Below, in pieces: positions 20,646-34,617 of a stretch of DNA of 64,000 nt. The notes under the pieces are model-generated. The model was not told the DNA's origin. It saw only the letters and a list, made by a program, of their open reading frames with translations, and did no database searches. Each line of letters opens with the position of its first letter. The stretch's first letter is position 1. Source of the DNA: a virus (lineage: Duplodnaviria > Heunggongvirae > Uroviricota > Caudoviricetes); the IMG/VR virus record IMGVR_UViG_2778260992_000001; one strand, 5' to 3'. The translations under genes were made by a program, and so were the position numbers.

Positions 20646-20759
20646 CGGTTGCAACTTATTGATAATGGCGGTCACAATTTGATTCTTTTCTATAAGAATC
20701 CGTTGATCGCCACTACTCCCCTTCCATACCTGCAATCATACCCTTAAATATCAATAGGT

Positions 20760-22170
20760 TATGGTTGTTTATACAAATAAGAAAACAACTAAATAACAGA
20801 TCAACGAAACGTCAACGCTTTCACCCGATTTGGTCTAAAAAATTGACGTTTTCACACATCACTTCTTATACCCGTAACTCTACGCAGCAGACAGCGCCAC
20901 AGCGTCCAATTTTCACCACAGACGACCCAACACACTACCAACAAAAACACACGCTCAAAATCGCTCCCGTTGCGTTACGCAACCATATAAACAACTTATT
21001 TTCAGGCATAACAAAACAACTAAATAACACACATGCCATTCCCAAAAACAACCAACCTCTTTATGGCAGGCTACCGAAAAGACCCACCTCTTCTCCCCAG
21101 GCTACCGGACAACCAACCTAACTTTCACAGGCAATCCGAAAACATTCATACGCGCGATACCCACGACACGCCATTACCCAAACAGCGAAGAAATACCAGA
21201 CTCACTGAAACCCCAACGAAGCCTGTTACCGCAAGGATTCTCTCAATCCCAAAAGACACGAAACAGAACAATCACGGGAAACGCCATTACCCAATACACG
21301 AATAACTACAAAAGCCTTTCAGGCACTCCAGACAAACAACTCAAACACAATAACGAAAGCAATCGCCCACCTGCCATTACTCCATACACGGAGAAGAACA
21401 ATCACCAAAACGACGAGAACACCCCATAGAAGAACCACCGCAAAACGAACGAAACCACATACACCGACAGAGAAAACAACACACCCAATTCACCAACAGA
21501 AATAGTCGCCGTATAGGACATTCTGGAAGGAGTGAGCATTAACGCCTATAGAGAGGTTGAGACAGATAAAACACAACATGTATAGCGAAGAAGCCAGGTA
21601 TGTATAAGTGGGGATGGAAGGAGGGGTGTCGCCTCCTTTTTCGTATTTATTCAACTCCTGATTTTATCCCCCGTAACACCCCTACGGTCAGCCTTCGGTC
21701 CATACAGGGGAAAGGCTGCATCCCGCTACAGAAACGGCTGGGTTGCCTTTGGGAACGGCTGGAGGTTTTCAGGGAAACGGTCGAGTTGCCTGTGTGGATT
21801 TCGGGAAAAGGCTCGATGCCGGTTCAGGAACGGTGGCGTACCGGTATAGCGAGAGGGAGAGTTGCGGCTACCCACCTGTAATGTGCGGGAAGAAGAGAGG
21901 CGCTCACGTAGGCGGACTTGCTTACCGCTGGATTCCCTCTGAATGCCCAGCTACAGCGTAATTGTGCCAGACAGCCAACGGGTCACAATCGATTTCAGTA
22001 GGTTTTTGGGGAGAGGATTACTCTGCCACCAGCCACTTTCGGCCACTAAATCAGAATAATGTAAAAAGTGTACTCGGTACTGAACCTGAAAACTCACTGC
22101 CAAAACCACATTCACCGGAACAAAATCCTTTTTCGCCTGTGCGTTATTGCGATAATAACACCATCAAGAA
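20760..22170. repeat. ORF-poor region: A+C-skewed tract with ~19-bp repeats followed by GGRAACGGC-type iterons
   Basis: top strand nearly G-free 20800-21560; repeats gccattacccaaacagcgaag / gccattacccaatacacgaat / gccattactccatacacggag; then gggaaaggctg, gaaacggctg, ggaacggctg, gggaaacggtcg, gggaaaaggctcg. Confidence 0.45.
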
Positions 22171-22185
22171 AACATGTTGTTTAAG
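22166..22185. promoter_or_regulatory. palindromic operator-like site, class 1 (variant spacing)
   Basis: aagaaaacatgttgtttaag. Confidence 0.45.
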
Positions 22186-22194
22186 GATTGCTTT

Positions 22195-22524
22195 ATGTTT
22201 ACAAATATCGACATCAACCAAATCAAGAAATTAACTCAAAAAGAGTTTGATCAGTTTTATGAGTTAGAAGGTTGGTCTTCCACTCTGATCAATTCAAGAT
22301 GGGTGCTGGAACTGATGACTCGTGATGACGCACCTGCTTTGATGATCAGCGACCTGGGTGAAGATGCTGACTTTATGGATATGAGCGAATTTTGTGTGGA
22401 CACATACAACCGCAGCCAGAAGTACTACTTCACATGCGATAGCGAAAATGACGTGATTTCTAAGGTCTATCTTCACCTCGTCCAGCATTGGGACGTTCAG
22501 GAGTTTCTTGAAGTATTCGAGTAA
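22195..22524 (+). CDS. hypothetical protein
   Basis: ATG 22195 preceded by RBS taaggat; 109 aa. Confidence 0.45.
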   Translation: MFTNIDINQIKKLTQKEFDQFYELEGWSSTLINSRWVLELMTRDDAPALMISDLGEDADFMDMSEFCVDTYNRSQKYYFTCDSENDVISKVYLHLVQHWDVQEFLEVFE

Positions 22525-22650
22525 CCCCAACCAAAGCCAGCATTGCTGGCTTAATTTCTCTATAGCCGCAGGGAAGAACCTGCATATAGCTCATGCACCT
22601 GATCAATATGCTTTGTAGCCGTTTTCTTACTGGTATTATTTACGCCATTG

Positions 22651-22667
22651 AGAAAACAAGTTGTTTA
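22651..22667. promoter_or_regulatory. palindromic operator-like site, class 1
   Basis: agaaaacaagttgttta. Confidence 0.5.
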
Positions 22668-22677
22668 CGGAGTTGTG

Positions 22678-22989
22678 ATGAAAAAATCATTGGTTCTTGG
22701 TCTGGACAAAGACCAGAAGAGAAAAGAGAAGCCTGCGCTGGTTGCTCAATTAACTTTGCTGGACATCGTTGCCAATGGAACCTCTATTCGTCTGTTCCGT
22801 GAAACAGCGGTGTCTTTCGATAAAAACACCTTTACTCGTTATGTAATGAATGTTCGTCGCCAGCGTGGAAAAGGCTGGGTGGCATTTCAAAGAATGTGGC
22901 CGGAACATCAGCTCGAACTGGCTTTGATGGAAGTTAACCGCGTGGCCCAGCAAGAGATTCAGAGAGCATCAGTGATGGCAATAGCCTGA
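22678..22989 (+). CDS. hypothetical protein
   Basis: ATG 22678 with RBS acggag; 103 aa. Confidence 0.45.
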   Translation: MKKSLVLGLDKDQKRKEKPALVAQLTLLDIVANGTSIRLFRETAVSFDKNTFTRYVMNVRRQRGKGWVAFQRMWPEHQLELALMEVNRVAQQEIQRASVMAIA

Positions 22990-23023
22990 TAATGTGCAAG
23001 TGGTAATTAGTCGACCGTACGAC

Positions 23024-23052
23024 AGCCCCGCCATCCTTACGGGGCTTTTTTG
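23024..23052 (+). terminator. rho-independent terminator
   Basis: agccccgccatccttacggggct + tttttt. Confidence 0.6.
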
Positions 23053-23115
23053 TATTGTAAGTACATACTTACGATCATAGAATATAAAAATAACCAAAAC
23101 ACTACGGAGAGTGAA

Positions 23116-23511
23116 ATGACCGTTAAACGCGAAAAACTGACAGTTGATGTTTACTATGCCTCTGAAACCGCCGAAGGTAAGAATGTGGCAAAAATCACCG
23201 TTGTTACGTACAACACCGAAACTGGTGCCGAAGTCCAGGCCAGTACGATCGTGCGTAAAGGTGATGCCTCCGGCGGCGAGTACGCGACTCAATACCAGTC
23301 CATTCTCGATGCAACTGACCCGCTGCTGCTGAAAATCGAGAACTACTTCCGCCAGGTTAATGAAGAGGTGTTTGAAACCATGATGAATATGGTTAACACC
23401 GTATTCGCCTCCAGCCTGAATACCAACACTACCTGGATTGGTCAGTACGGCCTGCGCATTACCTCTGGCATTCCTGCCGACACCTTAATCCCTGAAAGCG
23501 TATTCGCTTAA
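23116..23511 (+). CDS. hypothetical protein
   Basis: ATG 23116 with RBS ggagagtg; 131 aa. Confidence 0.5.
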   Translation: MTVKREKLTVDVYYASETAEGKNVAKITVVTYNTETGAEVQASTIVRKGDASGGEYATQYQSILDATDPLLLKIENYFRQVNEEVFETMMNMVNTVFASSLNTNTTWIGQYGLRITSGIPADTLIPESVFA

Positions 23512-23520
23512 TCCTCTTTA

Positions 23521-23547
23521 AATGGCGCGTAAACCGCGCCATTTTAT
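23521..23547 (+). terminator. rho-independent terminator
   Basis: aatggcgcgtaaaccgcgccatttt. Confidence 0.55.
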
Positions 23548-23555
23548 TATGCCCG

Positions 23556-23573
23556 ATAACAATTTGTTTTCTG
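23556..23573. promoter_or_regulatory. palindromic operator-like site, class 1
   Basis: ataacaatttgttttctg (flanks match the 19324 copy). Confidence 0.5.
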
Positions 23574-23628
23574 CCTTATCTGATTTGTGAAAATGATTTC
23601 ACTGAAGCAACTTAATAAGGAAACCATC

Positions 23629-24003
23629 ATGGGACTTGATATCTATATCGAGACGCAGCCTAAAAACGATCTGAATAACGAGGCATCCAGAAAGCAGGTT
23701 GCTTACTTCCGTAAGTTCAATGCGCTCGTTGGGTGGATGGAGCGCAACGTAGGTGAAGTCGAAAATTGTGAGCTTTTAGAATTAACGATGAATGACATTT
23801 GTTTTCTGAAGGCTCATTTGATGCACATAAACGAAAGTAATTGCGAAGAGTACTTGCCTACCCGGGAAGGTTTTTTCTTCGGCAGTCAGGAGTACGATGA
23901 AGGTTACTGGCATGATGTGGGGCAGTTGAAAGAGCTTGTGGAAGATCTGATTAAGAACCACGACTTTCACAATAACAGACTGACCTTCTGCGCCTGGTGG
24001 TAA
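23629..24003 (+). CDS. hypothetical protein
   Basis: ATG 23629 with RBS aaggaaacc; 124 aa. Confidence 0.45.
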   Translation: MGLDIYIETQPKNDLNNEASRKQVAYFRKFNALVGWMERNVGEVENCELLELTMNDICFLKAHLMHINESNCEEYLPTREGFFFGSQEYDEGYWHDVGQLKELVEDLIKNHDFHNNRLTFCAWW

Positions 24004-24005
24004 AT

Positions 24006-24149
24006 ATGGGCGATTTCAAGAAACGCCTGAAGGAAAGAGCCGAGATGGTCAGAAAGCAAAACGCCTCTTCTGTCATCAGATACGCAAGGCAGTTTAGTCG
24101 CAACAACAAATCAGTTGAGGAAAAGATCCTTAGCGTAATCGGGCGATAA
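24006..24149 (+). CDS. hypothetical small basic protein (47 aa)
   Basis: ATG 2 nt after upstream stop, followed by hairpin; below the track length cutoff. Confidence 0.25.
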   Translation: MGDFKKRLKERAEMVRKQNASSVIRYARQFSRNNKSVEEKILSVIGR

Positions 24150-24154
24150 TTATT

Positions 24155-24178
24155 AAGGCCACCAGCATTGGTGGTCTT
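24155..24178 (+). terminator. terminator-like hairpin (repeat copy 1)
   Basis: aaggccaccagcattggtggtctt; near-identical copy at 24626. Confidence 0.45.
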
Positions 24179-24302
24179 AAATGACTTTTAATAACCGAAG
24201 GTTAGTTTGAAACCTGGCTATCAACTTCCATAACCTTTCTTGTGTATTCAGCCTGTATTAACTTCTTTTATGCCTTATCTACACTGCGATAATTACACCA
24301 AC

Positions 24303-24620: not shown

Positions 24621-24625
24621 AGGCT

Positions 24626-24649
24626 AAGGCCACCAGCATTGGTGGCCTT
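24626..24649 (+). terminator. terminator-like hairpin (repeat copy 2)
   Basis: aaggccaccagcattggtggcctt. Confidence 0.45.
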
Positions 24650-24787
24650 AAATGACTATCTTGTTTCCCGCAGGCTAAAAACACCAACCTCTTACCTCCA
24701 GGCAACCGACAAACCCACCTGTTCCCGTCCGGCTACCGTAACTTTCCACTTTGACGCCTTATTCGTACAACGATAATTAACACCAAC

Positions 24788-24807
24788 AAGAAAACAATTT
24801 GTTATTT
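24788..24807. promoter_or_regulatory. palindromic operator-like site, class 1
   Basis: aagaaaacaatttgttattt with same upstream flank as the 24303 copy. Confidence 0.5.
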
Positions 24808-24824
24808 ACGATAAGGAATTAATC

Positions 24825-25307
24825 ATGAATTTTATCGCTACTGTAAACGCACCCGCACATGGCAATATCGCTGTAACGTTCTCTGACATTGAAAAACGAG
24901 TACTTGGTGCATGGCGCGACAATGAGACGGTAGAACTGTCAGCACAAGAAAAATGCATTATTGCACGCGACATCATTGGCAATCGTCGTTACTCGCGGGT
25001 ATTTGAAAAAGCGTATGTGGTAAATTCTGGATTCGGAACGTTCGTCTTTCCGGTGCGCTCCGGGCGATTCTGCCAGTCCAAGCTGATTGAGTTCGCTACG
25101 CAGATTTCTGTCTGGATTAAAACTCAATCGTCGTTCAAATTTTCCGACGATGAAGCAGTATCGCAGGGGATGCGGATCGCCAACAATGCAATTAAATGCA
25201 AAAACATTACGTATACCGCTGGCGTTGATACATGGAAACTGTTTTGCGCTAACTTTATGCTGAATGTATACGCAAGCAACCGCATCCACATCCTTGATGG
25301 CGTGTAA
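24825..25307 (+). CDS. hypothetical protein
   Basis: 160-aa ORF, RBS aaggaat. Confidence 0.5.
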   Translation: MNFIATVNAPAHGNIAVTFSDIEKRVLGAWRDNETVELSAQEKCIIARDIIGNRRYSRVFEKAYVVNSGFGTFVFPVRSGRFCQSKLIEFATQISVWIKTQSSFKFSDDEAVSQGMRIANNAIKCKNITYTAGVDTWKLFCANFMLNVYASNRIHILDGV

Positions 25308-25923
25308 CTGAGAAGAGGGCCAGAAACGGCCCTTTCTCTATAGCCACCAGCTGCCGCAGGGAAATTTTCAGAAACGGCGAGGAACGTATTCATGAGCCGA
25401 CGGGAAACGGCCAGGATTTTTTCGGGAAACGGCTGCATTCGCCTTTATGTAGAAAAAACATCGGGAAGCTGGTGGAATCCAACCAGCGGTTGTCGGACAG
25501 GTGAGCGGGGAAAATTATGATGACTTTCGTCACCTGAGACATCCAGATTTCTTTCGTAGCATAATCACATACGTGATTAAGTGGTGTGATTATGTGAAAA
25601 ATCACGCGCACATAATACGCGAGCGGATACAGAACAAAACAAAATGCCGATCCGCACCGACAAATAAACGCGGATCACATAGCAAGACTAAAAGCCAATG
25701 ATTAACCATACTCTATAGCGCAATATAACGCGTTTTAAGCGCGTTAATGTGTTAAGTAATGGGTATGTACTGGCAAGGATATAAAAGCGCGTCTATGGCG
25801 TTATTTTGGTGCTTATTTTTATGTTGTTGGAGTGAGTTAAAGACAATAAAAAACGCGCCATTGATGGCGCGTTATTGTGGAAGTATTGGAAACGAAAAAA
25901 GCGCCCATAGTGGGCGCTCGATT

Positions 25924-26154
25924 TTATTTATGTAAACTGATTTCAAATCCCATTTCTACAAACGCTTTCAGCATTAAAAATATATCAGCGTCGTTCACGT
26001 CTGCTTTTTTTCGCTCCTGGTCGCTCAATAAGTCAATTTTGCGCGTCGTTTCATCTATAAGCTCGACTGCGCGCCCAGCGTAACCAGCGATCCCAGCGAT
26101 GCGATTAACATAATATTCGTTATGGACGTTAACGCCAGCGATAAGAACAAACAT
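25924..26154 (-). CDS. hypothetical small protein
   Basis: 76-aa ORF in AT-rich minus-strand cassette; preceded and followed by gcgcccatagtgggcgc hairpins. Confidence 0.4.
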   Translation of the reverse strand: MFVLIAGVNVHNEYYVNRIAGIAGYAGRAVELIDETTRKIDLLSDQERKKADVNDADIFLMLKAFVEMGFEISLHK

Positions 26155-26174
26155 GATTAAGCTCCTTAAAAAAA

Positions 26175-26423
26175 TTAAATAGAATTTTGAAGTTTTCCAA
26201 TTAATGCGCTTAAACGTAAGTATTCACGTTTGCGCTTGCAATCTCGCTTGCTGTTAAGCAAATCAGAAAACGTAAAATTTAATTGGTCGCGTTGCGCGAT
26301 TAAATCATCGATTAATTCTAGTTTATAAGCGCGATACTTTGCGCGATATTCCGCGCGGATCTTGTCATAGCTGACCATTTTCAAAGCTCCTTTAAAGCGC
26401 CCATAGTGGGCGCTTGATTCCAT
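26175..26423 (-). CDS. hypothetical small basic protein
   Basis: 82-aa ORF, K/R-rich. Confidence 0.4.
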   Translation of the reverse strand: MESSAHYGRFKGALKMVSYDKIRAEYRAKYRAYKLELIDDLIAQRDQLNFTFSDLLNSKRDCKRKREYLRLSALIGKLQNSI

Positions 26424-26426
26424 TAA

Positions 26427-27077
26427 TTACGCTTTGAAAGCATCAGCTAAATAATTGTAGAAATCATTTTTAATGAAGCGATATTGCTGAGTACCAGCTT
26501 TCGCGCTCCCAGCTCCTTTGACTTTTTCAACAAGTCCAAGACGTTCGCAAAGATTGATCAACTGGTTGGCTTGAGTATAACCAGCGTCCAATTTAATTTC
26601 ACACGCTTTTTTAGCTTCATTCATTAAATCGAAAACAGCGCCATTAGTGAACGTGTCGATCTCGTCGTTAATCATATCGATTAAAGCGAATACACGAGAT
26701 CCAGACATATCAGCGATGGAATAAACGCATTTACCAGATTTAATTGATTTAACCAGATAAACCAGTTTTTCCAGAGAATAACTATTAGTCATTGCATCAC
26801 GGAAAAATACTTCTGGCGCTTGTTTGCTTGCTTTAATCGCATAGTAGAAAACAGAGCATAATTTTTCGTCTTCTACTGCGTTTACGACGTTGTTGATGAA
26901 GTAAGCAAGTTTAGTGGTCGCAGCTTGCATATTTGCTTTGTCTGCTTTAGTGTGCGTACCATTTTTATAATGTTCGTTATATGTTTGAGTTGCCAGATCT
27001 GCTTTTTCGCGCAGTTCATCGGATACAATGGAAGCAGCTTCAATGATGGATTTTTTAGAAATGATAATGTTAGCCAT
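26427..27077 (-). CDS. hypothetical protein
   Basis: 216-aa ORF, RBS aaggaaaaatt on minus strand. Confidence 0.5.
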   Translation of the reverse strand: MANIIISKKSIIEAASIVSDELREKADLATQTYNEHYKNGTHTKADKANMQAATTKLAYFINNVVNAVEDEKLCSVFYYAIKASKQAPEVFFRDAMTNSYSLEKLVYLVKSIKSGKCVYSIADMSGSRVFALIDMINDEIDTFTNGAVFDLMNEAKKACEIKLDAGYTQANQLINLCERLGLVEKVKGAGSAKAGTQQYRFIKNDFYNYLADAFKA

Positions 27078-27672: not shown

Positions 27673-28197
27673 TCAAAAAGGCAAAATTCGTTCAACCCAA
27701 TCGAACAAAACAACTATTTTTCTACCGTTCTCGACACGTAGTGTAACCTGACAAGCATCTGCGCCTGCTGACACCCCCTCAATTTCACGGCCATCCGCCA
27801 TGTACACCCTTATAGATTTGTTTGCTTTGTAGGCTTGGTTGCAAATTGCAAAAAAATCGCGGCGTGATGGCCGATTATCGACATAATCAGGGTGAACTGT
27901 TAGTCGACCTTTGAAATCGTGAGCGATACTGTCAACCACACCTGATTCAATTGTACTAATGCGTTCAAGTGGGAGCCTTATACGATTTTCTTTGTCAAAA
28001 GGGGCTGGGCAAAGGTCAACTTTGTTACGAGATGGCATGAGGCCATAAACGTACATGCAAAACGCCTGGCCATCTTCGAGAGTGACCCTTACAGGAATTT
28101 GTTCTCTGCGCCAGAACATCAGTAGTTTTTCAACGTTAGTGTAATCTCGCGGCCAGAGTTCAGCTTGGATACCGTAGGTAATATCTTTGGTTGTCAT
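27673..28197 (-). CDS. hypothetical protein
   Basis: start placed at internal Met (MTTKDITYG) so as not to overlap upstream lipoprotein gene; 174 aa. Confidence 0.4.
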   Translation of the reverse strand: MTTKDITYGIQAELWPRDYTNVEKLLMFWRREQIPVRVTLEDGQAFCMYVYGLMPSRNKVDLCPAPFDKENRIRLPLERISTIESGVVDSIAHDFKGRLTVHPDYVDNRPSRRDFFAICNQAYKANKSIRVYMADGREIEGVSAGADACQVTLRVENGRKIVVLFDWVERILPF

Positions 28198-28201
28198 GTC
28201 A

Positions 28202-28624
28202 TCACAGAGTTGTTGGCAGAATGTCGATGTCACCAGAATTGCTGGTGAACACCCTGAACGCTTTTGTGTCTCCATTCTTCAGAGTCGTTTCTCGCTCTTG
28301 ACGAGCGGGGTTTAGAGCACATAAACCTGCACCTTCAAGAGATGCACCCACAATTAATTCTCCGGCATTTAAATGAAAAGTCGCTTTTTCGCCTGTAGCC
28401 AGTTTTGCGACAGTTTCGCCATTGATGAAAATGGAAGCATCACATCCAGCTCCTACAAAACCTGTGTCTCTCATTACCACCAACGTAGCTGGCGCTGCGC
28501 TTTGATACTTGAACACTTTGGCCTGCGGTGCTGGTTTGGCGTCATGGATTGATATTGGACGTGATTGGCACGCGGTAAGCATCAACACTGGTAACGTTAG
28601 TAGAGGGAGAAGCGAGTATTTCAT
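28202..28624 (-). CDS. putative lipoprotein
   Basis: MKYSLLPLLTLPVLMLTAC: signal peptide with lipobox L-T-A-C. Confidence 0.55.
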   Translation of the reverse strand: MKYSLLPLLTLPVLMLTACQSRPISIHDAKPAPQAKVFKYQSAAPATLVVMRDTGFVGAGCDASIFINGETVAKLATGEKATFHLNAGELIVGASLEGAGLCALNPARQERETTLKNGDTKAFRVFTSNSGDIDILPTTL

Positions 28625-30579: not shown

Positions 30580-30598
30580 TAAGTAAGTGATTACTTAG
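30580..30598. promoter_or_regulatory. palindromic site, class 2
   Basis: taagtaagtgattacttag immediately upstream of first ParB-like gene. Confidence 0.45.
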
Positions 30599-30615
30599 TG
30601 GATTGTAGCAATAAA

Positions 30616-31296
30616 ATGGATGTAAAAATCACGATTTTGCAGGTTGATGTTGCCAACCTTCGCCCGAATACCTGGAACACCAATTCGGTTGGTGCGCAGA
30701 ATTTTGAAAAACTGAAAGGTTCTATCGAAAAATTGGGCTTTTTTAAGCCAATTTTGGCTCGTGAACTTGAAGATGGATTTTTTGAAATCCTCGGCGGTGA
30801 ACATCGCTGGCGTGCTGCTATTGAGCAAGGAATTTCAACGGTTCCGGTGCTTTCTGTGGGCAAAATTAGCGATGTCGTAGCTAAACAGATGTCACTGGTG
30901 GACAACGAGCGATACGGTGAAGACGACCAAATCGCATTGCAACGCTTCATTGAAGAAATTCAGTCAGAACTTGACTATCAACTGTTTGAAATCGCTCCGT
31001 ATGACGACGAAATCTCGATGGTTTTAGCAAAAGAGGCGGCAATCGACCTTGAAGCACTGGAGGCGTTGTCTCGTGGTAGTGATGAGCCTGTCGATACCGA
31101 CAAACGAGAGAAAACCGAACGTGTGGGTGCGGAACATCAGACCATGCGCTTCAAAGTAACTTTCGATGCGTCAGATCGTGTTGCAGAAACCATAAAAAAC
31201 ATCATCAAAGAGCAGGCTATTAACACCGGTAATGAAATGGAGAACGCTGGTGAGGCTCTGGTGTGGCTGGTCGACTACTACAAGGAGCGTATGTAA
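30616..31296 (+). CDS. ParB N-terminal-domain (ParB/Srx nuclease-like) protein 1
   Basis: LGGEHRWRAAIEQGISTVPV ParB-N signature; start ATG 30616 (alternative GTG 30598). Confidence 0.6.
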   Translation: MDVKITILQVDVANLRPNTWNTNSVGAQNFEKLKGSIEKLGFFKPILARELEDGFFEILGGEHRWRAAIEQGISTVPVLSVGKISDVVAKQMSLVDNERYGEDDQIALQRFIEEIQSELDYQLFEIAPYDDEISMVLAKEAAIDLEALEALSRGSDEPVDTDKREKTERVGAEHQTMRFKVTFDASDRVAETIKNIIKEQAINTGNEMENAGEALVWLVDYYKERM

Positions 31297-31964
31297 TGAC
31301 CAAAAAGTTTGAAATCGTATATCGCGACCCGGCAGATCTTATTCCCTATGAGATGAATGCCAAAAAGCATGATGAACAGCAGATCAGAGATCTGGCCGCA
31401 GCCATTAAAAAGCGCGGATTTGACCAGCCAATTACGGTCGATAAGAACGACGTAATTATTACTGGCCACGGCCGCCGTGAGGCTGCAATTTTTGCTGGAC
31501 TTGAGCGCGTACCGGTTATTGTTCGCGATGATCTCAGTGATGACGAGGTTCGTGCGAAGCGCCTTGAAGATAACCGACTTGCCAGCATTGATTACGATGC
31601 AATTAAGCTACAGAAAGAGCTTGAGTCGCTTGTTCTGGACGATATCGAGGTTTTCGGCTTTGAAGAGCGTGAGTTGAATGTTCTCGTTGGCAGTATGACA
31701 GAAGAAATGGACACCGACTCGCTAGTTATCGATCTTGGCGAAGAAACTAAACGACAGAAGGATGAACACACCGAGATCAGTCGTGAAGTTGCAGCGGAAG
31801 AAGTACGTGTTGTCGACGTATTGGGCTTTAAAACGCTCCCTGCTGGCTCTGCCATTGTTGTTGGTGATTTGCTTGCCCATATGGAAGAAATGACGGGAGA
31901 AAGCGGGGTAGACGCATTTGTGGCATATGCGGAGAAGATCTCTTCCGGGGAGATGGCTGCATGA
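31296..31964 (+). CDS. ParB N-terminal-domain (ParB/Srx nuclease-like) protein 2
   Basis: ITGHGRREAAIFAGLERVPVIV ParB-N signature; TAATG coupling, RBS aaggag. Confidence 0.6.
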   Translation: MTKKFEIVYRDPADLIPYEMNAKKHDEQQIRDLAAAIKKRGFDQPITVDKNDVIITGHGRREAAIFAGLERVPVIVRDDLSDDEVRAKRLEDNRLASIDYDAIKLQKELESLVLDDIEVFGFEERELNVLVGSMTEEMDTDSLVIDLGEETKRQKDEHTEISREVAAEEVRVVDVLGFKTLPAGSAIVVGDLLAHMEEMTGESGVDAFVAYAEKISSGEMAA

Positions 31965-32626
31965 GCAAATACATCATCAACGTATCGTTTCAGACACGCG
32001 TAAATAAAACCACGCGCACGTTGGAAATCGCTGAGTCGTTCGGGCTTGGCCTGGACGAAAAAGAGTGGACGCTTTACGACAATCTGGAGCTGGAAGTGAA
32101 GCAGGGCGATGTGGTGTACATCACCGGCCAATCCGGTTCCGGCAAATCCGTTGTGCTGCGCGAGTTGCAACGACAGATGAAGGATGAAGGGCTGTCTGTA
32201 GCCTCCATCGATGATTTTACCTTCGATAATGAGGTTAACGTCATCGATCAGTTGGGCAAAACGACCAGTGATGCGCTTGGGTTGTTATCTATGGCTGGTC
32301 TGAACGATGCATATCTGTTTGTTCGCAAGCCTTCTGAAATGTCAGACGGCCAGAAATATCGTCTCAAGATTGCCAAACTGATTGAGTCAGGCGCTAAAGT
32401 ATGGGCTGCTGACGAGTTCGGCGCTGTTCTCGACCGTGTAACCGCTCAGGTTGTGGCGTCTAACCTCCAGCGTGCCGCTCGAAAGGTTGGTGCGACGGTA
32501 ATGGTGGCGACGACTCACGAAGACCTGAAGAACGCGCTGCGCCCTGATATGCAGATCACCAAGCACTACAAAGAACGCGTGAAGGTGGAATATCACAATG
32601 GTAGTCATGATGAGGTCCATTCATGA
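31961..32626 (+). CDS. stand-alone ABC-type ATPase (nucleotide-binding-domain only)
   Basis: Walker A GQSGSGKS, ABC signature-like MSDGQKYRL, Walker B VWAADEF, H-loop TTHED; 221 aa, no membrane domain. Confidence 0.6.
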   Translation: MSKYIINVSFQTRVNKTTRTLEIAESFGLGLDEKEWTLYDNLELEVKQGDVVYITGQSGSGKSVVLRELQRQMKDEGLSVASIDDFTFDNEVNVIDQLGKTTSDALGLLSMAGLNDAYLFVRKPSEMSDGQKYRLKIAKLIESGAKVWAADEFGAVLDRVTAQVVASNLQRAARKVGATVMVATTHEDLKNALRPDMQITKHYKERVKVEYHNGSHDEVHS

Positions 32627-33513
32627 CGGACATCATCATTAAACGCTACCGCCCTGAAGAGTTTCCGCGTCATCTGGACTTTCTGGAGCGAATGACTGTT
32701 ACAAAGGGAACTGTAGAGGACTGGCACGCTCTTAAGTCGCTTCACTACAAAACAGACGGCAAACCTTTCGCGCCAACTTACTATCGCTGCGAACTTGATG
32801 ACCGTCTGGTGGGCGTCGTGGTTATGGCTTACCCGAAACTACTGTTGGCACCTCGCCACCGCATGTTTCCTAAGTTGAAACCAACCACTAATACCACCGT
32901 GGCTAACCAGTACTGGGGTCGGTACGTGAATAACAACTTTGCGGTGATCAGTCGCTCAGTTGTGGATACTCAGTATCGTGGCGTAGGCGTCTCTTATAGA
33001 ATGATTAACCTGGTTAGCAGGATGCATGACCGGCCAATCATTGAGATCCAGTCCTCGATGAGCAAATACAATCCCTTCGCCATGAAAGCAGGGTTTAAGT
33101 TCATCCGCCCTGAGCGACCGAAGAGCTATGAAAGTGCACTGCGTGTGTTCCAGCGCCATTTCCGCTCCGACCCGGGTGATAACGAGGCGATCGTCAAAGA
33201 GTTGTTCGCTATGAGCGAGTCTCGTCGTCGCCGTGCGCTGCGCGATTTGGTGGCGGACTACCATAAGAACAGTTCCCTGGCAAAAGCTGGGCGGAATCGT
33301 GGCACGACGATTCAGGACATTGCCGACAGTCTGGTGGACGAGGCCAGCATTGTGAAGCTGCTCAAGGACATTCACAACCTGAGCTTTACGTCTCCGTTGT
33401 ATGGTGTGTACCGAAACCCTGACTTTGGCCGTCGACTGCCTGACACGCTGCCACTGCTGGCATTCGACAAACAACCTTTGGATAAACCGTTAGAAATTGC
33501 TTTACCGGCATAA
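32623..33513 (+). CDS. hypothetical protein (possible GNAT acetyltransferase-like fold)
   Basis: ATGA-coupled; YRGVGVSYRMI resembles GNAT motif A; otherwise unassigned. Confidence 0.4.
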   Translation: MTDIIIKRYRPEEFPRHLDFLERMTVTKGTVEDWHALKSLHYKTDGKPFAPTYYRCELDDRLVGVVVMAYPKLLLAPRHRMFPKLKPTTNTTVANQYWGRYVNNNFAVISRSVVDTQYRGVGVSYRMINLVSRMHDRPIIEIQSSMSKYNPFAMKAGFKFIRPERPKSYESALRVFQRHFRSDPGDNEAIVKELFAMSESRRRRALRDLVADYHKNSSLAKAGRNRGTTIQDIADSLVDEASIVKLLKDIHNLSFTSPLYGVYRNPDFGRRLPDTLPLLAFDKQPLDKPLEIALPA

Positions 33514-33984: not shown

Positions 33985-34617
33985 ATGACGGTCGAAAAAG
34001 ACGAGGTAAAAACTCGCCTGACACCAGCGGAGTGGGCCGAAGCTGAAGCCAAATGGACGTCAGGCGAATATACACTCTCAAAGCTGGAGGAAGAGTACGG
34101 CATTCGTCGTGAAACACTCTCCAGACATTTCAAAAAGCGAGGATTAGAGAAAGGCGCGGACTCTGTTGGGAAGATGGTTCGTGAGTCTCTTAAATCTGAC
34201 GCAGAGCTTCGCGCTAAAGCCCGTGCGGAAAAGATAGAAGAACGTCGTACACGTTATGACGGCTGGGCGTATGCGTTGGGGCAGATGGTGATGGTCGAAG
34301 TCACTACGGCCAAACGTGAGGGTAAGCCTTTAGGGGCGATTGAGGATTCTCTCAAGAGCTTACAGAGAGCCAGTAATACCCTTGCAAAATGCTTTGAAGT
34401 TTCGTCCAAAGCATTGGGCATGGATCATGCGGAAAATGACGAGGAAGAAATTCCGAACCTGGTATTTGGTGAGCTTACGCCTTCCCAGGTGGCGAAATTA
34501 CGTCAGGAAGACGACGAGCCTGAAATCATCGATGACGAATTGCTTGAGACGTTGGAAGAAGAAGCTCTAAGCGAATTTGATGCGACAGATGATGGAAGTG
34601 AAGGGGAGGACGAATAA
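33985..34617 (+). CDS. putative terminase small subunit
   Basis: position immediately upstream of and coupled to large terminase; N-terminal HTH-like region, acidic C-terminus. Confidence 0.55.
   Translation: MTVEKDEVKTRLTPAEWAEAEAKWTSGEYTLSKLEEEYGIRRETLSRHFKKRGLEKGADSVGKMVRESLKSDAELRAKARAEKIEERRTRYDGWAYALGQMVMVEVTTAKREGKPLGAIEDSLKSLQRASNTLAKCFEVSSKALGMDHAENDEEEIPNLVFGELTPSQVAKLRQEDDEPEIIDDELLETLEEEALSEFDATDDGSEGEDE

What the first reader, a model, noticed from the sequence alone, without database searches (positions are those of the whole stretch)
25308..25920. Second GGGAAACGGC iteron cluster plus multiple hairpins at the strand-switch region
The 21.7-kb iteron motif recurs here (gggaaattttcagaaacggcgaggaacg, cgggaaacggccagg, cgggaaacggctgc), alongside gtgatta repeats and three GC-clamped hairpins (cgcgccattgatggcgcg; gcgcccatagtgggcgc at 25895 and again at 26400). 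The region lies where plus-strand early genes meet the minus-strand cassette. Iterons at two loci ~4 kb apart could bracket a replication or partition control region.
Basis: seen in the sequence. Interest (0 to 1): 0.45.

Follow-up and report, generated by a model that had tools for sequence, protein, structure and literature searches.

The report
Conserved repeat array boxed by terminators
A gene-free 616-bp spacer of an SSU5/pHCM2/pMT1-type phage-plasmid carries a regularly spaced GGGAAACGG repeat array, conserved across the family and flanked by transcription terminators; it is most likely a docking site for an unidentified DNA-binding protein, and it is not the plasmid's replication iterons.

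Summary
Window 25308-25920 is a gene-free spacer between convergent genes of an SSU5/pHCM2/pMT1-type phage-plasmid. It holds four same-strand sites with the core GGRAAMGG(Y). S3 and S4 are exact GGGAAACGGC copies 22 bp apart. A six-site array of the same motif lies at 21709-21837. Clusters like these arose in 1 of 300 simulated windows, and no third cluster exists in about 101 kb of a complete relative. Both arrays keep their position, orientation and mostly their spacing in Escherichia, Klebsiella, Enterobacter, Salmonella and Buttiauxella. Yersinia pestis pMT1 keeps only the second array.

The hairpins are intrinsic terminators. One ends the 160-aa gene. Two in tandem end the minus-strand operon. 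The copy at 26396-26414 lies between two genes.

The plasmid's own RepA iterons (CCACTRTAGAGAG type) are unrelated, so the replication-iteron reading fails. I found no structured RNA, Rfam match, DnaA boxes or adjacent rep or par gene.

My best reading, at moderate-to-low confidence, is a transcription-shielded protein-binding array on DNA, paired with its partner 3.6 kb away. The binding protein and its purpose are unknown. The feature is unannotated and uncharacterised, and present in 238 of 5426 complete E. coli genomes.

The parts
25310..25341 (+). Intrinsic terminator of the 160-aa ORF: stem GAGGGCC/GGCCCTT (25315-25334), loop AGAAAC, T-rich tail
   Evidence: The hairpin is kept with changes on both sides: GGGCC/GGCCC in E. 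coli against GGGGC/GCCCC in Klebsiella, Enterobacter and Yersinia. L137 and L140 have a different stem (GGGAGA/TCTCCC) at the same place.
25359..25380 (+). Sites S1 (GGGAAATTTTC, weak) and S2 (CAGAAACGGCG) of the array
   Evidence: In relatives S2 varies as AGAAAC, AGGAAC or ATAAAC, while AACGG is kept.
25399..25413 (+). Site S3, CGACGGGAAACGGCC (exact GGGAAACGGC at 25402-25411)
   Evidence: 11 of 15 columns are invariant in 15 sequences that are 59-84% identical to the window overall.
25421..25435 (+). Site S4, TTCGGGAAACGGCTG (exact GGGAAACGGC at 25424-25433), preceded by a T-tract
   Evidence: 12 of 15 columns are invariant. The S3-S4 spacing is 22 bp in every lineage except the two most divergent.
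25436..25470 (+). Conserved block after S4 (GCCTTTATGTAGAAAA...GAGCGGGAG in relatives). GCCTTT is an imperfect inverted partner of AAACGGC.
   Evidence: Mean column identity is 0.90. It is homologous to the stretch after site 4 of the 21.7-kb array.
25471..25845 (.). Lineage-variable middle of the spacer. It contains palindromes TAATCAC-ATAC-GTGATTA (25562-25579) and GTGATTA-N7-AATCAC (25586-25605), the conserved 14-mer TGTGATTATGTGAA (25585-25598; extended -10-like), and hairpin GATCCGC/GCGGATC (25649-25676).
   Evidence: This stretch is replaced or partly deleted in L073, pKPHS1 and V055. The 14-mer is exact in 20 loci. No RNA family matches.
25852..25873 (-). Second of two tandem intrinsic terminators of the minus-strand operon (AACGCGCCATCAATGGCGCGTT + TTTTTAT)
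   Evidence: All 9 pairs are kept in 14-15 of 15 sequences.
25899..25919 (-). First terminator, directly after the 76-aa ORF (GAGCGCCCACTATGGGCGCTT + TTTTCGTTT). It is also terminator-like on the + strand.
   Evidence: The stem is invariant and the loop varies.
26396..26414 (-). Second copy of the same hairpin, between the 216-aa gene and the 67-aa gene. It is followed by TTTAAAGGAG (the RBS), so it is an intercistronic hairpin and not a strong terminator.
   Evidence: (family D10).
21709..21840 (+). Partner array of six sites (21709, 21731, 21752, 21773, 21804, 21827), with spacing 22, 21, 22, 31, 22
   Evidence: The same spacing pattern is seen in a relative about 70% identical (L027: 22, 22, 22, 31, 22). 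Homologues occur in 711 plasmids, none of them Yersinia.
21617..21642 (+). Intrinsic terminator 67 nt upstream of the partner array (GGAGGggtgtcgCCTCC + TTTTT)
24825..25307 (+). 160-aa ORF (phrog_1641) that ends at the spacer
   Evidence: The model has pLDDT 85 and no fold match.
26427..27077 (-). 216-aa protein (phrog_1513), first gene of the operon that terminates at the spacer. It has a long helical hairpin plus a C-terminal winged helix, and is a candidate binder only.

Best explanation
The conserved part of the spacer (25359-25470) is an array of sequence-specific protein-binding sites on double-stranded DNA. The core is GGRAAMGG(Y). Sites are about 15 bp long, all in one orientation, mostly 22 bp apart (two helical turns), and preceded by in-phase T-tracts. 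It is one of two paralogous arrays in the element; the other, with six sites, is at 21709-21837.

Each array sits immediately downstream of an intrinsic terminator. Array 2 is also protected from the other side by two tandem terminators. RNA polymerase should therefore not sweep the bound protein off. I infer that an element-encoded protein coats both arrays, and that the two nucleoprotein complexes may pair and loop out the 3.6-kb block of small early genes between them. P4 ori/crr, R6K iterons and P1 oriR/incA pair distant repeat clusters in this way.

Shown: the motif, the clustering, the conservation of sequence, position, orientation and spacing, the terminators, and the lack of relation to the RepA iterons.

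Inferred: that the level of action is DNA, that a protein binds, and that the arrays pair. Neither the binder nor the purpose (auxiliary or lytic replication site, regulatory boundary, or packaging or partition accessory) is established.
For: - Clustering is beyond chance.
- There are only two clusters in about 101 kb of the complete relative pGD31-F25.
- S3 and S4 are the most conserved columns of the spacer (0.96-0.97 against about 0.83). This holds across sequences 59-84% identical overall, from six genera.
- The core RAAACGG survives in both arrays of the most divergent lineages found, L137 and L140.
- The spacing pattern 22, 22, 22, 31, 22 is kept between the window and L027 at about 70% identity, and the 22-bp steps are kept in Klebsiella and Salmonella, although indels are common just outside the arrays.
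- All sites are on one strand.
- Terminators flank the arrays.
- There is no evidence for a structured RNA. Folding z-scores are -0.74, -1.77 and +0.46, the RNAalifold covariation term is only -2.46 outside the terminators, and Rfam gives nothing.
- No conserved ORF covers the array.
- Arrays built on the same GGAAACGGC core at 21-22 bp spacing are true origin iterons inside lambdoid-type rep genes in unrelated viral contigs. A protein fold that reads this core in such arrays therefore exists.
Against: - No binding protein is identified. ORF160 has no recognisable DNA-binding fold.
- The two ParB_N proteins lack an alignable ParB helix-turn-helix.
- The 216-aa winged-helix protein has no motif copy at its own promoter.
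- No homologue of the lambdoid Rep is present.
- Helical phasing is not strict. S2-S3 is 33 or 34 bp, and L137 has spacings of 28, 24 and 34.
- Some sites are closed by short complementary triplets (CCG...CGG), with one possible compensatory change (columns 46 and 71). This would also fit small RNA hairpins.
- There are no expression or binding data.
Confidence: 0.45

Rival explanations
1. The array acts at the RNA level. The repeats are binding motifs, in short hairpin loops or single-stranded stretches, on plus-strand read-through or 3'-UTR RNA of the upstream gene. They would recruit or titrate an RNA-binding protein, such as the element's FljA-like/Sm-like protein at 27673-28275 or host CsrA.
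For: - All sites are on the strand transcribed from upstream.
- Both arrays follow a terminator whose U-tract is imperfect.
- S2 and S3 can be closed by GCCG/CGGC or CCG/CGG, with one G-C to C-G swap in three sequences.
- An FljA-family protein with a weak Hfq-like C-terminus is encoded 2 kb away.
- GGGAA density peaks at exactly the two arrays.
Against: - Folding energies are no better than shuffles.
- Covariation is negligible.
- The conserved core is AAMGG, not GGA. S2 is AGAAAC or ATAAAC in most lineages, which does not fit CsrA.
- Plain GGA density is not exceptional.
- The 22-bp spacing and in-phase T-tracts are DNA-like features.
- No sRNA was reported in this spacer in a Y. pestis RNA-seq catalogue (PMC3770706 Table S1). 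That study used few conditions.
Confidence: 0.2
2. The array is the upstream activator region of a promoter for a non-coding plus-strand transcript. S4 would replace the -35 element, TATGTA (25446-25451) would serve as a -10, and S3-S1 would be upstream helper sites, as with PhoB or OmpR boxes. Alternatively the conserved TGTGATTAT at 25585-25593 is an extended -10. The lineage-variable middle of the spacer would be the RNA, ending at the 25900-25918 terminator.
For: - The spacer has conserved ends and a variable middle.
- GGGAAA-16 nt-TATGTA is kept in most lineages.
- The 14-mer with an extended -10-like TGnGATTAT is exact in 20 loci.
- The plus strand has a terminator-like site at 25900-25918.
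Against: - TATGTA lacks the invariant final T.
- pKPHS1-type lineages have TCATGG there, and they also lack the 14-mer.
- The partner array has its TATAG box 13 nt after the last site, not 15-17 nt.
- The consensus scan does not call either site as a promoter.
- The middle has no Rfam match and no conserved structure.
Confidence: 0.1
3. The arrays are a centromere-like or packaging-recognition site. They would be bound by a partition adaptor (the ParA-like gene starts at 63527) or by the small terminase (33985-34617).
For: - Centromeres of type Ib and II systems, and some pac/cosB sites, are phased direct repeats shielded from transcription.
- No repeat array lies upstream of the ParA-like gene.
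- GGAAACGG x3 at 11-bp spacing precedes a terminase-small-subunit-like gene in an unrelated viral contig (L099).
Against: - The arrays are 38 kb from the ParA-like gene and 8.5 kb from terS.
- pMT1 lacks array 1.
- From my own knowledge, pMT1 uses a P1/P7-type parABS, so the arrays do not track the partition system.
- No motif copy lies near terS.
Confidence: 0.1
4. This is the first reader's version: iterons of the plasmid replication or copy-control system, bound by RepA, bracketing a replication or partition control region.
For: The geometry is iteron-like, and there are two clusters a few kb apart.
Against: - The RepA iterons of the same plasmid type are CCACTRTAGAGAG-like and lie on both sides of repA. 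This is about 35 kb from the arrays around the circle and outside the window.
- There are no DnaA boxes.
- Y. pestis pMT1 replicates without array 1.
Confidence: 0.03
5. The arrays have no present function. They would be relics of a duplicated terminator-proximal segment that hitch-hike with neighbouring conserved terminators.
For: - The two loci are paralogous over about 50-130 bp.
- One motif copy lies inside the ORF160 terminator.
Against: - S3 and S4 are more conserved than the adjacent terminator loops and than most of the spacer.
- The motif is kept in both arrays in lineages where the flanks are unalignable and the terminator sequence has been replaced.
Confidence: 0.07

Closest known systems
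Iteron arrays of theta-replicating plasmids and phage-plasmid P1 (oriR plus incA; F incB/incC; R6K gamma/alpha/beta) [own knowledge]
   Same: Direct repeats of about 15-20 bp at 21-22 bp spacing, all in one orientation, in two separated clusters that could pair ('handcuff' or loop).
   Different: - The sequence is unrelated to this element's own RepA iterons.
- No rep gene lies between or next to the arrays.
- There are no DnaA boxes and no clear AT-rich unwinding element.
- One array is dispensable for plasmid maintenance in pMT1.
Satellite phage P4 ori and crr (cis replication region), both bound by the alpha primase-helicase [own knowledge]
   Same: Two clusters of a short repeated motif about 4 kb apart on one replicon, with the smaller cluster acting at a distance.
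   Different: - The P4 motif is TGTTCACC.
- No alpha-like (primase-helicase with origin-binding domain) gene was seen near the arrays.
- A role in replication is untested here.
Origin iterons inside lambdoid-type rep genes found in IMG/VR contigs (TGGAAACGGC-N6-GCCGAAT x5, then a GATC-rich AT stretch and a DnaA box; loci L132, L095, L134)
   Same: The same 9-mer core GGAAACGGC, a GGC-N6-GCC inverted partner at several sites, and 21-22 bp spacing.
   Different: - Those arrays lie inside the initiator's coding sequence and are followed by an AT-rich, GATC and DnaA-box module.
- Here the arrays are intergenic, lack that module, and no homologue of that Rep exists in the element.
- The shared core was the search pattern, so the resemblance is partly selected for.
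ParB/Noc half-sites (parS GTGAAAC-A; NBS ATTTCCCGGGAAAT; PMC7383237)
   Same: GGGAAAC is one step from either half-site. S4 with its T-tract (TTTTTTCGGGAAAC) is an imperfect NBS-like palindrome. The element encodes two ParB_N proteins.
   Different: - The ParB_N proteins align with Spo0J/Noc only over the N-terminal (GxxRxxA) domain, and the helix-turn-helix region does not align.
- The sites are mostly direct half-site repeats, not palindromes.
Rho-independent terminators at convergent gene ends
   Different: There is no difference for the hairpins at 25315-25334, 25852-25873 and 25899-25919. The copy at 26396-26414 lacks a full T-run and sits between two genes of one operon.

Membership tests
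Rep-bound iterons of the element's plasmid replicon (IncFIB/P1-like RepA) | Repeat sequence matches the iterons that flank repA | tested here: not met
   The iterons around repA of pGD31-F25 are (A/T)CCACT(A/G)TAGAGAG-like. They share no similarity with GGGAAACGG.
Rep-bound iterons of the element's plasmid replicon (IncFIB/P1-like RepA) | Located next to the rep gene, with DnaA box(es) and an AT-rich or GATC-rich unwinding region | tested here: not met
   repA lies outside the window, about 35 kb from the arrays around the circle. The nearest DnaA-box-like hits are about 1 kb or more away and occur at chance frequency.
Iteron-like protein-binding repeat array (generic) | Three or more same-orientation repeats of about 15-22 bp at spacings of roughly whole helical turns, in excess of chance | tested here: met
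   Spacings are 22, 21, 22, 31, 22 and 11, 33, 22. Such a cluster occurred in 1 of 300 simulations.
Iteron-like protein-binding repeat array (generic) | Repeats conserved in relatives more than their surroundings | tested here: met
   S3 and S4 have 11-12 of 15 columns invariant, against about 25% invariant in the variable middle. The core is kept in L137 and L140.
Iteron-like protein-binding repeat array (generic) | A cognate protein binds the repeats | not testable with these tools
   There are only candidates: the 216-aa winged-helix protein, ORF160 and the ParB_N proteins. None is linked to the motif.
P4-type bipartite origin (ori + crr) | Both clusters required in cis for replication and bound by one initiator-helicase | not testable with these tools
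   Only the two-cluster geometry is shown. No alpha-like gene is adjacent.
Intrinsic (Rho-independent) terminator | GC-rich stem-loop followed by a T-run, just downstream of a stop codon, with the stem kept in relatives | tested here: met
   This holds for 25315-25334 (+), 25852-25873 (-), 25899-25919 (-) and 21617-21642 (+). The first shows compensatory stem changes.
Structured non-coding RNA / Rfam family | Match to a covariance model, or stability and covariation above background | tested here: not met
   Rfam gave 0 hits at the gathering threshold. At an E-value limit of 1 it gave only a sub-threshold two-hairpin match, E 0.27. Folding z-scores are -0.74, -1.77 and +0.46. The covariation term is -2.46.
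CsrB/RsmZ-type CsrA sponge | Many GGA motifs, GGA being the conserved core, in hairpin loops of a transcribed sRNA | tested here: not met
   The conserved core is AAMGG. S2 lacks GGA in most lineages. GGA density is not unique to these loci. Transcription was not tested.
ParB/Noc-type parS site | Palindromic 14-16 bp site plus a ParB protein with the matching helix-turn-helix | tested here: inconclusive
   The half-site resembles parS and NBS, but the sites are mostly direct repeats. The ParB_N proteins lack an alignable HTH.

The most novel reading that the evidence does not exclude
The two GGGAAACGG arrays are the cis sites of a so far undescribed maintenance or replication-control module of the SSU5/pHCM2/pMT1 phage-plasmid family. 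One version is a bipartite lytic origin and enhancer in the manner of P4 ori/crr. Another is a looping boundary that a family-specific protein, such as the 216-aa coiled-coil/winged-helix protein, uses to switch the bracketed early-gene block between the plasmid state and the phage state.
Probability: 0.2. Interest if true: 0.6.

Novelty: new member of a known kind. Interest (0 to 1): 0.4.

Why it matters
SSU5-like phage-plasmids are common in clinical Enterobacteriaceae. This module is on a plasmid in 238 of 5426 complete E. coli genomes and in about 780 PLSDB plasmids, including S. enterica plasmids and Y. pestis pMT1. Almost nothing is known about how these elements control the switch between plasmid and phage life or where lytic replication starts. 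The arrays are among the most conserved non-coding sequences in the region examined, and they are unannotated in every record inspected. They therefore give a concrete, cheap handle for experiments: a 130-bp probe for pull-down, and a clean deletion target. If they turn out to be only a local regulator's sites, the result is routine.

Tried and rejected
- **RepA iterons.** I read the repA flanks of a 98.6%-identical plasmid and found an unrelated motif.
- **Known RNA families and tRNAs.** Rfam at the gathering threshold and at the E-value threshold, and ARAGORN, gave nothing.
- **Structured RNA.** Single-sequence folds on both strands and RNAalifold on 15 sequences recovered only the terminators.
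- **DnaA boxes.** Hits are at chance frequency and none lies near the arrays.
- **ParB_N proteins as binders.** The N-terminal domain is clear, but the HTH does not align.
- **Lambdoid Rep with GGAAACGGC iterons.** tblastn found no homologue in the element.
- **216-aa winged-helix protein.** The fold is supported, but I found no link to the motif. A Serratia remnant carrying the gene has no array beside it.
- **Published sRNAs.** The Y. pestis RNA-seq catalogue lists two intergenic pMT1 sRNAs, both elsewhere.
- **Literature on SSU5, pHCM2 or pMT1 origins and termini.** Nothing relevant was held, and one 2026 preprint on phage-plasmid copy number could not be opened.
- **Viral-collection scan for the repeat pair.** It returned mostly chance hits or coding repeats, plus more SSU5-like contigs.
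- **Type Ib centromere upstream of the ParA-like gene.** There is no repeat array there and no GGGAAACGG.

Full report
**What the element is.** The window is part of an SSU5/pHCM2/pMT1-type phage-plasmid of about 110 kb. Window 24800-26500 is 97-99% identical to Escherichia phages CMS-2020a and PhiR41_1 and to about 200 E. coli plasmids. It has more distant matches in Klebsiella, Enterobacter, Salmonella, Citrobacter, Cronobacter and Y. pestis plasmids. Annotated relatives show plus-strand small genes running into the region from the left. A minus-strand cassette enters from the right, followed by two ParB_N genes, terminase, portal and capsid genes.

**The observation.** Window 25308-25920 is a 616-bp gene-free spacer between a 160-aa ORF (24825-25307, +) and a 76-aa ORF (25924-26154, -). 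No record inspected annotates anything in it.

The repeat motif, written G[GA]AAA?[CA]GG[CT], has 24 distinct sites in the 64 kb, against about 19.5 in simulations. Ten of them fall in two same-strand clusters:
- 21709-21837 has six sites, with spacing 22, 21, 22, 31, 22.
- 25323-25433 has four sites. S3 and S4 are exact GGGAAACGGC copies 22 bp apart.

Three or more same-strand sites within 130 bp arose in 1 of 300 simulated windows. In about 101 kb of a complete 98.6%-identical plasmid there is no third cluster.

**Conservation.** The spacer is syntenic and similar in length (about 580-650 bp) in six genera. In a 15-sequence alignment that is 59-84% identical to the window, S3 and S4 have 11 and 12 invariant columns out of 15. 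The middle of the spacer has about a quarter invariant. That middle is replaced or partly deleted in some lineages.

The partner array at 21.7 kb is likewise conserved in 711 plasmids. A tabulation of 37 sites gives the consensus Y-V-G-G-R-A-A-M-G-G-C-Y-R-G. It also shows that the spacing pattern is retained:
- L027, about 70% identical: 22, 22, 22, 31, 22.
- Klebsiella: 42, 22, 22, 22.
- Salmonella: 44, 22, 31, 22.
- Array 2: 33 or 34, then 22, in all lineages tabulated.

The two most divergent lineages I could find are L137 (ORF160 51% identical) and L140 (216-aa protein 53% identical). Both keep RAAACGG sites in both arrays, although the flanks no longer align. Their spacings differ, however: L137 has 28, 24 and 34.

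**The hairpins.** All are intrinsic terminators or terminator-like elements.
It follows the ORF160 stop codon and has a T-rich tail. Its stem changes on both sides between lineages, and L137 and L140 have a different stem at the same place.
- 25899-25919 and 25852-25873 are two tandem minus-strand terminators after the 76-aa ORF. The first also looks like a terminator on the plus strand.
- The identical hairpin at 26396-26414 lies between the 216-aa gene and a 67-aa gene. It is followed by the next gene's ribosome-binding site and not by a T-run.
- The partner array is also preceded by a plus-strand terminator, at 21617-21642.

**What the arrays are not.**
- They are not the plasmid's replication iterons. 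repA lies outside the window, and its flanking iterons are CCACTRTAGAGAG-like.
- No DnaA boxes are nearby.
- The bracketed genes are six small family-specific ORFs without recognisable domains.
- All 55 Y. pestis pMT1 records have array 2 but none has array 1, and these plasmids are stably maintained.
- They are not a known RNA. Rfam gave nothing at the gathering threshold and only a sub-threshold two-hairpin match (E 0.27) at an E-value limit of 1. ARAGORN found no tRNA genes. Folding energies are no better than shuffles on either strand, and RNAalifold adds almost no covariation beyond the terminators.
- They are unlikely to be a CsrA sponge. The conserved core is AAMGG rather than GGA.
- They are not the element's general operator. 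A different motif, AGAAAACAnnnTGTT, occurs 13 times against 0.7 expected, in front of many operons. GGGAAACGG occurs only at these two promoter-less places.

**What they most likely are.** The features point to DNA-level binding sites for a sequence-specific protein: sites of about 15 bp, one orientation, mostly two-turn spacing, in-phase T-tracts, strong conservation, no structured RNA, and terminators shielding them from transcription on every side from which transcription arrives. Two such complexes 3.6 kb apart could pair. This is inference.

The closest working analogies, from my own knowledge, are P4 ori/crr, R6K alpha/beta/gamma and P1 oriR/incA. In unrelated viral contigs I found genuine origin iterons built on the same GGAAACGGC core at the same spacing, inside lambdoid-type rep genes. 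No homologue of that Rep is present here, and the core was my search pattern.

**Candidate binders, all unlinked to the motif.**
- ORF160: the model is confident but has no fold match.
- The two ParB_N proteins: the motif resembles a ParB/Noc half-site (PMC7383237), but their helix-turn-helix region does not align.
- The 216-aa product of the first gene of the operon that terminates at the spacer: it has a long helical hairpin plus a C-terminal winged helix. It is over 80% identical across genera, with an invariant recognition-helix segment.

**Rivals kept open.** These are an RNA-level protein platform on read-through transcripts, an activator-dependent promoter for a variable non-coding RNA, a centromere or packaging accessory, and relic duplication. 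No published sRNA maps here, and I found no literature on this region.

**Verdict.** The replication-iteron interpretation is not supported in its specific form, although the 'paired protein-binding arrays' idea survives. The hairpins are ordinary terminators. The feature is an uncharacterised member of a familiar class of cis elements in a clinically widespread element family, so interest is moderate.

Noticed in passing
window 20650-21550: A gene-free stretch of about 0.9 kb with extreme strand asymmetry (GC skew down to -0.50, AT skew up to +0.58). The plus strand is C/A-rich and nearly free of G and T. A good promoter-like TTGACG-17-TATACC lies at 20843-20872, and the stretch ends at the 21617-21642 terminator. 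It is syntenic in Klebsiella, Salmonella, L137 and L140. It could be a long CA-rich non-coding RNA or a very large Rho-loading region.
   Followed up: partly
window 5690, 6419, 10964(-), 19326(-), 19373, 22167, 22651, 23558(-), 24304, 24789, 33904, 33929, 63475: The motif AGAAAACAnnnTGTT (near-palindrome AAACAA-n-TTGTTT) occurs 13 times against 0.73 expected. It usually lies within a roughly 55-nt promoter/5'-leader module (TGCGATAAT extended -10 followed by AACACCAnCAAGAAAACA..TGTTTAAGGA). The module sits in front of the small early ORFs, the putative small terminase and the ParA-like gene. This looks like the operator of a global regulator of the element. From memory it also resembles the Salmonella fliC leader bound by FljA, which I did not verify.
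   Followed up: partly
window 21045-21141 and 24677-24742: A second shared repeat family with a 30-31-nt period, ACC(A/C)ACCT..CAGGCTACCG. There are three copies in the CA-rich region and two copies just upstream of the ORF160 promoter. Each set lies about 660-680 bp upstream of a GGGAAACGG array, and L140 has similar repeats.
   Followed up: no
window 27673-28275 (-): A 200-aa homologue of FljA, the repressor of phase-1 flagellin (PF03614, E 2.5e-84), with a weak Hfq/Sm-like C-terminal match. It is conserved in all relatives inspected, including pMT1, where it is annotated 'transcriptional regulator'.
   Followed up: partly
[not shown]
   Followed up: partly
window 30598-33513: Two tandem ParB_N-domain genes (one with a GEHRWRAA box), followed by an ABC-type ATPase without a membrane domain and a 296-aa partner. 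They sit at the head of the terminase/portal operon and are conserved throughout the family.
   Followed up: partly
window 24154-24180 and 24625-24651: Near-identical hairpins, TAAGGCCACCAGCATTGGTGGCCTTAA, act as terminators between the small-ORF cassettes. Each cassette therefore has its own promoter module and terminator, and the cassette content differs between relatives.
   Followed up: no
window 63527-64000: A ParA-like gene (MTKIFVVGGTKGGPGKST, deviant Walker A) starts here and runs off the window. Upstream it has a single copy of the global operator motif and no repeat array.
   Followed up: partly
loci L132 7070-7330, L095 885-1100, L134, L047, L118: Unrelated viral contigs carry 364-366-aa rep genes with five internal iterons, TGGAAACGGC-N6-GCCGAAT. 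These are followed by a GATC-rich AT stretch and a DnaA box (TGTGGATAA). The proteins have no Pfam match.
   Followed up: partly
Y. pestis pMT (L014) compared with window 20650-24300: In pMT1 the CA-rich region, array 1 and most small cassettes are missing, and an IS1541 copy sits at the junction. Array 2, ORF160 and the minus-strand cassette are intact.
   Followed up: partly
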